Assembly (NCBI GenBank): GCA_964187785.1
Contig: OZ076409.1
Span: 64,854,001-64,918,000, forward strand
From: Amphiscolops sp. MND2022
Lineage: Eukaryota
Direction of reading: 5' to 3'
DNA length: 64,000 nucleotides
The first letter of the stretch is position 1. Every line of letters starts with the position of its first letter. Positions 50,863 to 51,121 of this stretch are shown in pieces. The notes beneath the pieces were generated by a model that worked only from the letters and a program-made list of their open reading frames with translations, had not been told where the DNA came from and made no database searches. The translations under genes and the position numbers were made by a program.

Positions 50863-51121
50863 TCTCCCATAGCTTAGTGGTTATAGCATTGACTAAAGTT
50901 AAGGCTTCGGCCGGAGTGTTTGGGGTTCACTTCTATCCAACGTCCCCCAGTCTTTGTTACAACTTACATGTTATGGGAGAATAATCACCAATGGCACAGT
51001 TCTTAAAAAGGATAATCCCTGCTGTGGAAACTCTTAGTGGAACGGACTCCCGATGGGCTTTGAGTTTACCATAGGCATGTCAATGCATATACCAATGCAA
51101 ATGAGCATGCCTATGGGTTTT
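50863..51121 (+). ncRNA. Candidate structured Pol III-type non-coding RNA
   Basis: A-box TAGCTTAGTGG at 50870. Stem TCTCCCATAGC/GTTATGGGAGA, GGC-TTCG-GCC loop, hairpin CCATAGGCATG/CATGCCTATGG. First T4 run at 51118..51121. Confidence 0.45.

What the first reader, a model, noticed from the sequence alone, without database searches (positions are those of the whole stretch)
50863..50980. Candidate VA-RNA-like Pol III transcript in the Polinton left end
Seen: TATA-like TTATATAA about 25 nt upstream and a tRNA-type A-box TAGCTTAGTGG at +8. The closing stem is TCTCCCATAGC(50863)/GTTATGGGAGA(50980), with inner stem GTTATAGCATTGACT/AGTCTTTGTTACAAC and a C(UUCG)G tetraloop hairpin at 50903..50912. 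There is a weak B-box GGTTCAC and no T4 terminator until 51118. It is not a tRNA cloverleaf. Established: adenoviruses, relatives of Polintons, encode Pol III VA RNAs that counter antiviral defences. Inference: an analogous small RNA in a Polinton.
Basis: partly seen in the sequence, partly recalled or inferred. Interest (0 to 1): 0.75.

Follow-up and report, generated by a model that had tools for sequence, protein, structure and literature searches.

The report
Conserved Pol III RNA in Polinton
The left end of a Polinton (a virus-like DNA element in a eukaryote's genome) holds a roughly 260-base unit with tRNA-type promoter boxes and paired stems that are kept in diverged copies from another organism; it is likely a non-coding RNA gene and would be the first I could find described for Polintons, though its expression and its link to Polintons elsewhere are untested.

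Summary
All motifs are at the stated coordinates, inside a Polinton that starts with (AGT)3 at 50518. Folding alone is weak support: z -3.4, but 29 of 1083 tiles of the window do as well. The decisive data came from public runs. Two runs of another organism laid 1292 and 1359 contigs, with nearly all depth on 50887-51097. Their majority letters keep all 16 pairs of the closing stem and core inner helix (4 changed on both sides, 1 on one side). They alter the A box only at a free position, and keep the 3' hairpin and T-run. So the unit is about 260 nt (G50862 to T4 at 51118), not 118. The B box fits 10 of 11 consensus positions. It is not a VA RNA: no ACCC partner, no Rfam hit. Best reading (0.45): a Polinton-borne Pol III RNA that likely acts as a protein decoy. 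Main rival (0.25): a free SINE-like family that landed in the Polinton. No RNA data were available, and linkage to Polintons in other genomes was not shown.

The parts
50518..50526 (+). Polinton/Maverick left terminus, (AGT)3
   Evidence: Sequence; (AGT)2 end motif described in PMC8097293. Right end lies outside the window, so TIR length and TSD are untested.
50711..50817 (+). 17-bp tandem array, 6.3 copies, upstream of the unit; role unknown
50835..50842 (+). TATA-like box at -27 to -20 from G50862
   Evidence: the only TATAWA in 50700-50900, chance about 0.02 for an 11-nt slot; not seen in the relatives' laid pieces
50862..51121 (+). Predicted Pol III transcript, about 260 nt, from G+1 to the T4
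   Evidence: Fold z -4.45 on +, -2.53 on -; the extent matches the block covered in runs X3/X4 and the loose-end cells; transcription inferred
50863..50873 (+). 5' arm of the 11-bp closing stem (pairs with 50970-50980)
   Evidence: Pair probabilities 0.86-1.0; 11 of 11 pairs kept in organism B majority cells, 2 changed on both sides, 1 on one side (read by eye)
50870..50880 (+). A box, exact match to TRGCNNAGYGG
   Evidence: organism B differs at 1 of these 11 positions (a free N) against 6 of the other 14 positions of 50862-50886
50884..50888 (+). 5' arm of the core inner helix (pairs with 50955-50959)
   Evidence: 5 of 5 pairs kept in organism B, 2 changed on both sides (the two 3' letters 50955-56 taken as unchanged because they lie in the laid part)
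50903..50912 (+). C(UUCG)G hairpin
   Evidence: p 0.79; one family in X3/X4 has other sequence here
50924..50934 (+). B-box-like motif, 10 of 11 to GGTTCRANYCY, 43 nt after the A box
   Evidence: lies in the bin with the highest depth in X3; its first 8 letters are kept in a divergent X4 family
50970..50980 (+). 3' arm of the closing stem
51028..51067 (+). Middle stem holding the sequence-conserved core 51036-51060 and a second A-box-like 11-mer at 51035
   Evidence: 14 of the 15 joints listed in X3/X4 resume at 51034-51041 with sides of 20-28 nt
51069..51116 (+). 3' terminal hairpin (11-bp perfect base stem)
   Evidence: base stem kept in organism B, whose majority form lacks the 18 nt at 51088-51105
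51118..51121 (+). T4, predicted Pol III terminator; further T5 runs at 51137 and 51146
   Evidence: a T-run follows the hairpin in X3 and X4 as well
51162..51962 (+). ORF1, 266 aa, no Pfam family; 329 relatives, the best 120 all in ENA contigs
52762..56655 (+). Likely protein-primed family B polymerase, 1297 aa
   Evidence: polymerase motifs recognised from recall; Pfam gave only a weak Endonuclease_7 hit
56765..58048 (-). Double-jelly-roll major capsid protein
   Evidence: PF21738, E 4e-21; 1526 relatives
58127..58999 (-). rve-type integrase
   Evidence: PF00665, E 7.5e-11
59034..61711 (+). Two A32-like ATPase ORFs (59034-60284, 60623-61711)
   Evidence: PF04665, E 7e-7 and 1.8e-4

Best explanation
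The Polinton's left end holds a 260-base unit with an A box, a near-consensus B box, a TATA box, stems kept by paired changes in another organism and a closing T-run; it is likely a Polinton-carried gene that host RNA polymerase III would copy into a folded RNA, predicted to act as a decoy that ties up a host RNA-defence protein. Inferred mechanism: TFIIIC binds the internal boxes (+9 to +19, +63 to +73) and TFIIIB sits on the TATA. Pol III starts at G50862 and stops at the T4. The RNA folds into (1) a 5' rod of about 118 nt with the A box in its terminal stem, as in adenovirus VA RNA, (2) a middle stem whose 25-nt core is conserved in sequence, the likely protein- or RNA-binding site, and (3) a 3' hairpin with a U tail that would protect the end. 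The decoy target (Dicer/Argonaute or a dsRNA sensor) is the weakest step, about 0.25 overall; it rests on analogy with VA RNAs and EBERs. Shown: motifs, spacing, predicted fold, conservation pattern. Not shown: transcription, partners, function.
For: Promoter geometry: exact A box at +9, B box 10 of 11 at 43 nt, TATA at -27, T4 right after a hairpin; an A+B pair arises in 0.3% of shuffles. The + strand folds better than - (z -4.45 against -2.53), with G-U pairs that suit RNA; DNA folds are weak, -11.9 and -10.5; in X3/X4 majority cells 16 of 16 pairs of the closing stem and core inner helix are kept (4 two-sided and 1 one-sided change); the A box changes only at a free N; G+1, the 3' stem and the T-run are kept, so the conserved block matches the predicted transcript. 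In X1 and X2 both the unit and ORF1 relatives are present; laid pieces of the unit are 92% alike, against 82-86% for the three long ORF1 pieces. An upstream TATA, and T-rich letters shared past the terminator, fit DNA-level inheritance better than retroposition (inference).
Against: No contig joins the unit to a Polinton gene. Long contigs of X2 and X4 (531, 694, 718 nt) lie on the unit with only part of their length, and the rest does not lay on this Polinton at 80%. The depths of the unit and of ORF1 differ in X2 (3.25 against 28-38) and X1 (5.2 against 14.5). Organism B's many diverged contigs (X3: 35/185/479/593 by likeness class) also fit a free repeat family. The covariation is one comparison (X3 and X4 are one organism and study), read from separate 5' and 3' majority cells of 46-107 contigs with agreement 0.63-0.67, not on single molecules. 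Of the 4 outer pairs 50879-82:50961-64, 2 break. One X4 cell (22 contigs, agreement 0.72) shows a six-T run near 50953-58 that would stop Pol III early. The B box lacks its conserved A. The host carries many tRNA-headed repeats, which raises the prior for a passenger.
Confidence: 0.45

Rival explanations
1. A free, tRNA-headed, SINE-like Pol III repeat family of the host lineage, one copy of which landed in this Polinton family as a passenger. The 3' hairpin would be the site a LINE enzyme recognises.
For: Summed depth on 50892-51087 is 21,577-117,330 in X3/X4, at least 237 times the highest bin outside the unit and its two edge bins (the tool warns depth is no copy number). Several subfamilies show in the loose ends. 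Five other A+B heads lie in 50.5 kb of host DNA. A 6-nt AT-rich direct repeat flanks the unit at 50856 and 51136.
Against: No A-rich or microsatellite tail; the unit ends in its own T4. A TATA sits upstream, which retroposition would not carry. No likeness to the window's LINEs or tRNA-headed repeats: no blastn hit, and 14-163 of 200 shuffles align as well. The flanking repeat is low-complexity. In X1 and X2 the unit is at low depth and more alike than ORF1.
Confidence: 0.25
2. A host multi-copy Pol III RNA gene of unknown family (vault-, 7SK- or Y-like role) that the Polinton captured together with its TATA.
For: TATA plus internal boxes, 3' hairpin and U tail, and covariation all fit a cellular Pol III RNA.
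Against: No Rfam family at E<0.9. Over a thousand diverged contigs in several subfamilies is unusual for a housekeeping RNA gene (inference). No other copy in the window.
Confidence: 0.1
3. A cis-acting element rather than a free RNA: a TFIIIC-bound boundary shielding the provirus from host silencing, or a structured Pol II leader of ORF1 driven by the TATA.
For: It lies between the terminus and ORF1. The TATA could serve Pol II. TFIIIC boxes act as insulators (recalled).
Against: Ten ATGs lie between 50862 and 51161, and ORF1 has the same short TAATAA-like start context as the other eight ORFs checked. An insulator would not need paired stem changes, and the conserved block stops at the T-run.
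Confidence: 0.1
4. A non-autonomous Helentron-type DNA element (HINE) inserted into a T-rich site; its inverted repeat and 3' hairpin would be transposition signals.
For: An 11-bp inverted repeat beside the 5' end, a 3' palindrome, T runs at both ends, and many copies in organism B (HINE features from PMC4067079 passages).
Against: In mite HINEs the 3' subTIR lies 38-60 bp from the end; here it is about 140 bp away. The model explains neither the A and B boxes nor the two-sided changes in the inner helix. DNA folding is weak.
Confidence: 0.07
5. A chance collection of motifs in AT-rich non-coding DNA.
For: Folding z of this size is reached by 29 of 1083 tiles; lack of an inner T4 has p about 0.26.
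Against: Bounded conservation with paired changes in another organism; A+B pair p about 0.003.
Confidence: 0.03

Closest known systems
Adenovirus VA RNAI/II (PMC7589676, passages)
   Same: Carried by a PRD1-adenovirus-lineage element (PMC8097293); internal box A and box B; box A inside the 5' terminal stem; likely G start; T4 terminator with further T-runs behind it.
   Different: About 260 nt against 160; the 5' stem closes at mid-length, not at the 3' end; GGGT is present but ACCC is absent; no Rfam match. PKR, VA's main target, is thought to be vertebrate-specific (recalled), and the host here is not identified.
Murine gammaherpesvirus 68 TMERs and EBV EBERs (bioRxiv 10.1101/795278, passages)
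   Same: Viral type-2 Pol III RNAs. TMERs have a tRNA-like 5' part followed by hairpins; EBER promoters add an upstream TATA-like box.
   Different: No cloverleaf here: ARAGORN is negative, and forcing an acceptor plus D arm costs 10.7 kcal/mol. The 3' hairpin in organism B is only about 11-12 bp, too short for a pre-miRNA. No sequence likeness was found (Rfam).
Bovine leukemia virus Pol III pre-miRNAs (PMC12498455, passages)
   Same: A provirus-borne unit with degenerate A/B boxes and hairpins ending at a T-run.
   Different: BLV units are single hairpins with the B box past the terminator; here one long multi-domain unit has an internal B box.
tRNA-derived SINEs (SINE2; PMC5753468, passages; head/body/tail layout recalled)
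   Same: tRNA-type A and B boxes in a 5' head, a conserved body, and many diverged copies in organism B.
   Different: No A-rich tail, no LINE-matching 3' end within the window, own terminator and upstream TATA, long-range covarying stems.
Helentron-associated HINE/DINE-1 elements (PMC4067079, passages)
   Same: Inverted repeat at the 5' end, 3' palindrome, T-rich ends.
   Different: The second repeat arm is about 140 bp from the 3' end, not 38-60; Pol III boxes are present.

Membership tests
Adenovirus VA RNA | Internal box A and box B with a T4 terminator | tested here: met
   (B box 10 of 11)
Adenovirus VA RNA | Box A within the terminal stem | tested here: met
   50870-73 pair in the closing stem (predicted)
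Adenovirus VA RNA | Complementary GGGU/ACCC tetranucleotides in a central domain | tested here: not met
   no ACCC in 50862-51121
Adenovirus VA RNA | About 160 nt; match to the family model | tested here: not met
   about 260 nt; no Rfam hit
Adenovirus VA RNA | Abundant expression; PKR/Dicer binding | not testable with these tools
   no RNA run was available
TMER-type tRNA-miRNA RNA | tRNA cloverleaf at the 5' end | tested here: not met
TMER-type tRNA-miRNA RNA | Conserved pre-miRNA-length hairpins downstream | tested here: not met
   19-pair hairpin here but about 11-12 pairs in organism B's majority form
tRNA-derived SINE | tRNA-type A and B boxes in the head | tested here: met
tRNA-derived SINE | Many dispersed copies with unique flanks | tested here: inconclusive
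   many contigs in organism B, flanks not identified
tRNA-derived SINE | A-rich or simple-repeat tail, or 3' end shared with a LINE | tested here: not met
   only this 64-kb window was available for the LINE comparison
tRNA-derived SINE | Target-site duplication | tested here: inconclusive
   only a 6-nt low-complexity repeat
HINE/Helentron | 3' subTIR 38-60 bp from the end, palindrome 8-35 bp from the end | tested here: not met
   arm at 50970-80, about 140 bp from the T4
HINE/Helentron | Empty TT sites and an autonomous partner | not testable with these tools
   no genome held
Polinton/Maverick (carrier element) | (AGT)n terminus, integrase, DJR capsid, A32 ATPase, pPolB | tested here: met
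   pPolB by recalled motifs only
Polinton/Maverick (carrier element) | Paired TIRs and 6-bp TSD | not testable with these tools
   right end lies beyond the window

The most novel reading that the evidence does not exclude
A whole clade of Polintons carries a dedicated, ultraconserved 260-nt Pol III RNA gene, more conserved than its protein-coding neighbour, that disarms host RNA-based defence and helps explain their massive spread in these genomes: an invention parallel to adenovirus VA RNA in the same viral lineage.
Probability: 0.25. Interest if true: 0.85.

Novelty: new variant of a known kind. Interest (0 to 1): 0.62.

Why it matters
Polintons are described only by their protein genes and termini in the paper I read on them (PMC8097293, passages). 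Five full-text searches found no paper on a Polinton Pol III or VA-like RNA (open-licence library only). A constrained Pol III RNA would be their first non-coding gene as far as these searches reach. It would give a cheap marker for active copies and a handle on how they persist in large numbers against host silencing, and it would bear on whether VA-like RNAs arose repeatedly in the PRD1-adenovirus lineage. If the SINE rival is right, it is still an uncatalogued structured repeat family, of interest about 0.3.

Tried and rejected
No genome is held for this window, so copies could not be aligned. No RNA holder was listed; this is no evidence on expression. X3/X4 are of unrecorded kind; I take them as DNA from their contig totals (1.5-3 billion letters) and from long low-depth contigs with flanks, which is an inference. 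The near-absence of cover on the terminus and ORF1 in X3/X4, and on 50500-50842 in X1/X2, is not used as proof of absence. Table 3 showed only ORF1 positions (96 rows hidden), so no per-position variant list of the unit was seen; 416 loose-end rows and 2676 piece rows were also hidden. Protein-based locus searches found no relative in viral contigs, JGI metagenomes (20) or GTDB genomes (39); two alignment queries had no usable stretch (65, 72). DNA-pattern scans gave 0, 23, 2, 1, 9 and 16 loci; none of the 51 loci extended much beyond the pattern, and L026 lies inside an archaeal ORF. No phage match. No Atlas hit for ORF1. No source named a host. Five look-ups of earlier findings gave nothing relevant. 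Rejected: true tRNA; known Rfam RNA (best was mir-1277 at E 0.9); minus-strand gene (no A+B pair there); copy of the window's tRNA-headed host repeats; 118-nt product made by termination (no T4 at 50980; it would need processing); folding energy as sufficient evidence. RNase P/MRP, SRP, 7SK and phi29 pRNA analogies were considered from recall and dropped for lack of any match.

Full report
Setting. The finding lies 345 bases inside a Polinton/Maverick that begins with (AGT)3 at 50518 (end motif as in PMC8097293, passages) and runs past the window end. Its ORFs include a DJR capsid protein (PF21738), an rve integrase, two A32-like ATPases and a 1297-aa ORF with family B polymerase motifs (motifs recalled). 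The rest of the window is LINE-rich eukaryotic DNA. The host is not identified. The capsid protein has 1526 relatives and ORF1 329; the best 120 of each are from ENA, mostly on long contigs, so this Polinton clade is very numerous in the assemblies that hold it.

Observation. The 118-nt stretch folds as described at -40.3 kcal/mol, z -3.44. That alone is weak: 29 of 1083 fixed tiles of the window reach that z with 12 shuffles each, and the tile starting at 50859 scores -0.9. The promoter geometry is stronger. The A box is exact and at +9 from G50862. The B box matches 10 of 11 positions of GGTTCRANYCY (PMC12498455, passages) 43 nt later. Such a pair occurs in 0.3% of 20,000 shuffles of the left end. 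A TATA sits at -27 (chance about 0.02). The first T4 follows a strong hairpin at 51118. The 260-nt stretch folds at z -4.45 on + and -2.53 on -. It is not a tRNA and matches no Rfam family. As a caution, the host part of the window has five other A+B pairs in 50.5 kb. They are short tRNA-like heads in repeats and do not align with the candidate above shuffles.

Relatives. No genome was held and all collection scans gave chance hits or nothing. Four public runs hold part of the stretch and were laid on 50500-51960 at 80%. X1 and X2 carry both the unit (laid pieces 92% alike) and ORF1 relatives (82-86% over the three long pieces), at different depths and on separate contigs. X3 and X4, one organism and one study, laid 1292 and 1359 contigs. 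Their summed depth is 21,577-117,330 on the four bins 50892-51087 and at most 249 and 90 outside the unit and its two edge bins. The tool warns that depth is no copy number and that holes prove nothing, so I use this only to say that many diverged versions of this bounded block exist there.

Covariation. The loose-end majority cells of X3/X4 show the diverged 5' arm and the 3' arm. Read by eye against the window's predicted pairs, 11 of 11 closing-stem pairs are kept, with two-sided changes at 50863:50980 and 50868:50975 and a wobble-to-standard change at 50872:50971. All 5 pairs of 50884-88:50955-59 are kept, with two-sided changes at 50885:50958 and 50886:50957. The A box differs at 1 of 11 positions, a free N, against 6 of the other 14 positions in 50862-50886. 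G+1 is kept. At the 3' end the 11-bp stem and the T-run are kept while 18 nt of loop are missing. Fourteen of 15 listed joints resume at 51034-51041, marking a sequence-conserved core of about 25 nt.

Results against. Two of the four outer pairs 50879-82:50961-64 break, and the innermost four could not be judged. One family has other sequence in place of the UUCG hairpin. One X4 cell shows a six-T run near 50953-58, which may be real or a blend of offset copies. The cells come from 46-107 contigs with agreement 0.63-0.67, are not linked on single molecules, and amount to one independent comparison.

Mechanism. I commit to a Polinton-borne type-2 Pol III gene giving an RNA of about 260 nt with a VA-like 5' rod, a sequence-conserved middle stem and a 3' hairpin with U tail, likely acting as a protein decoy against RNA-based defence (0.45 for the gene, about 0.25 with the decoy role). 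Transcription, partners and function are inferred. A miRNA-precursor role like that of TMERs or BLV is less likely because the 3' hairpin is short in organism B. The main rival is a free SINE-like family (0.25): the many contigs in organism B and the lack of any contig joining the unit to a Polinton gene allow it, while the TATA, own terminator, missing tail and covariation weigh against it. A captured host gene (0.10), a cis element or leader (0.10; ten upstream ATGs), a HINE (0.07; spacing fails against PMC4067079) and chance (0.03) follow.

Comparison. It is built like a viral Pol III RNA but is not a VA RNA: it lacks ACCC and differs in length and topology (PMC7589676, passages). It is not a TMER (bioRxiv 10.1101/795278, passages). 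Literature: ten searches. 'Polinton + polymerase III + VA RNA' and 'adintovirus + VA RNA' gave 0 papers. The other Polinton searches gave general reviews or unrelated papers, seen as listings only; one search listed 20 of 85, none holding the word Polinton. Six papers were read as passages; no whole texts or supplements. Subscription journals and Repbase/Dfam entries were not searched, so an annotated repeat family may exist there.

Verdict. Observation confirmed and extended; interpretation partly supported. New variant of a known kind, interest 0.62; 0.85 if it proves to be a clade-wide Polinton counter-defence RNA.

Noticed in passing
window 28226+, 37843+, 29093-, 18559-, 17369-: Five tRNA-like A+B-box heads in 50.5 kb of host DNA, set in repeats; the pair at 28226/37843 shares at least 45 bases upstream of the A box, including a TATA-like word, so it was likely copied as DNA.
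   Followed up: partly
window 50518-64000: A CpG-rich 8-mer (CGCGAAGC) has 10 of its 11 window hits in the Polinton, several inside ORFs, and one copy sits just behind the T4 at 51120-51134, inverted to a copy at 50675-50689. ORF1 relatives cluster at lengths 4 residues apart (263/267/271/275, 266/270/274/278), suggesting 12-bp in-frame micro-insertions.
   Followed up: partly
window ORF starts 51162-63300: All nine Polinton ORFs checked start right behind a TAATAA-, TTATAA- or AAATAA-type word in A/T-rich sequence, a shared start signal.
   Followed up: no
window 59034-61711: Two tandem A32-like ATPase ORFs in one Polinton, separated by short-period tandem arrays at 60301-60514 with the window's best-folding tile (z -9.2 at 60358).
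   Followed up: no
window 50711-50817: 17-bp tandem array of 6.3 copies ending 45 bases upstream of the predicted +1.
   Followed up: no
window 51035-51045: A second exact TRGYNNARYGG word lies in the most conserved core, with no B box behind it; two such words in 644 nt arise in 0.015% of shuffles. It may mark an old duplication of a tRNA-like head.
   Followed up: partly
window 33673-33802 and about 43897-44014: Strong host hairpins (z about -8 and -7); the first gives only sub-threshold plant miRNA model scores, likely foldback repeats.
   Followed up: no
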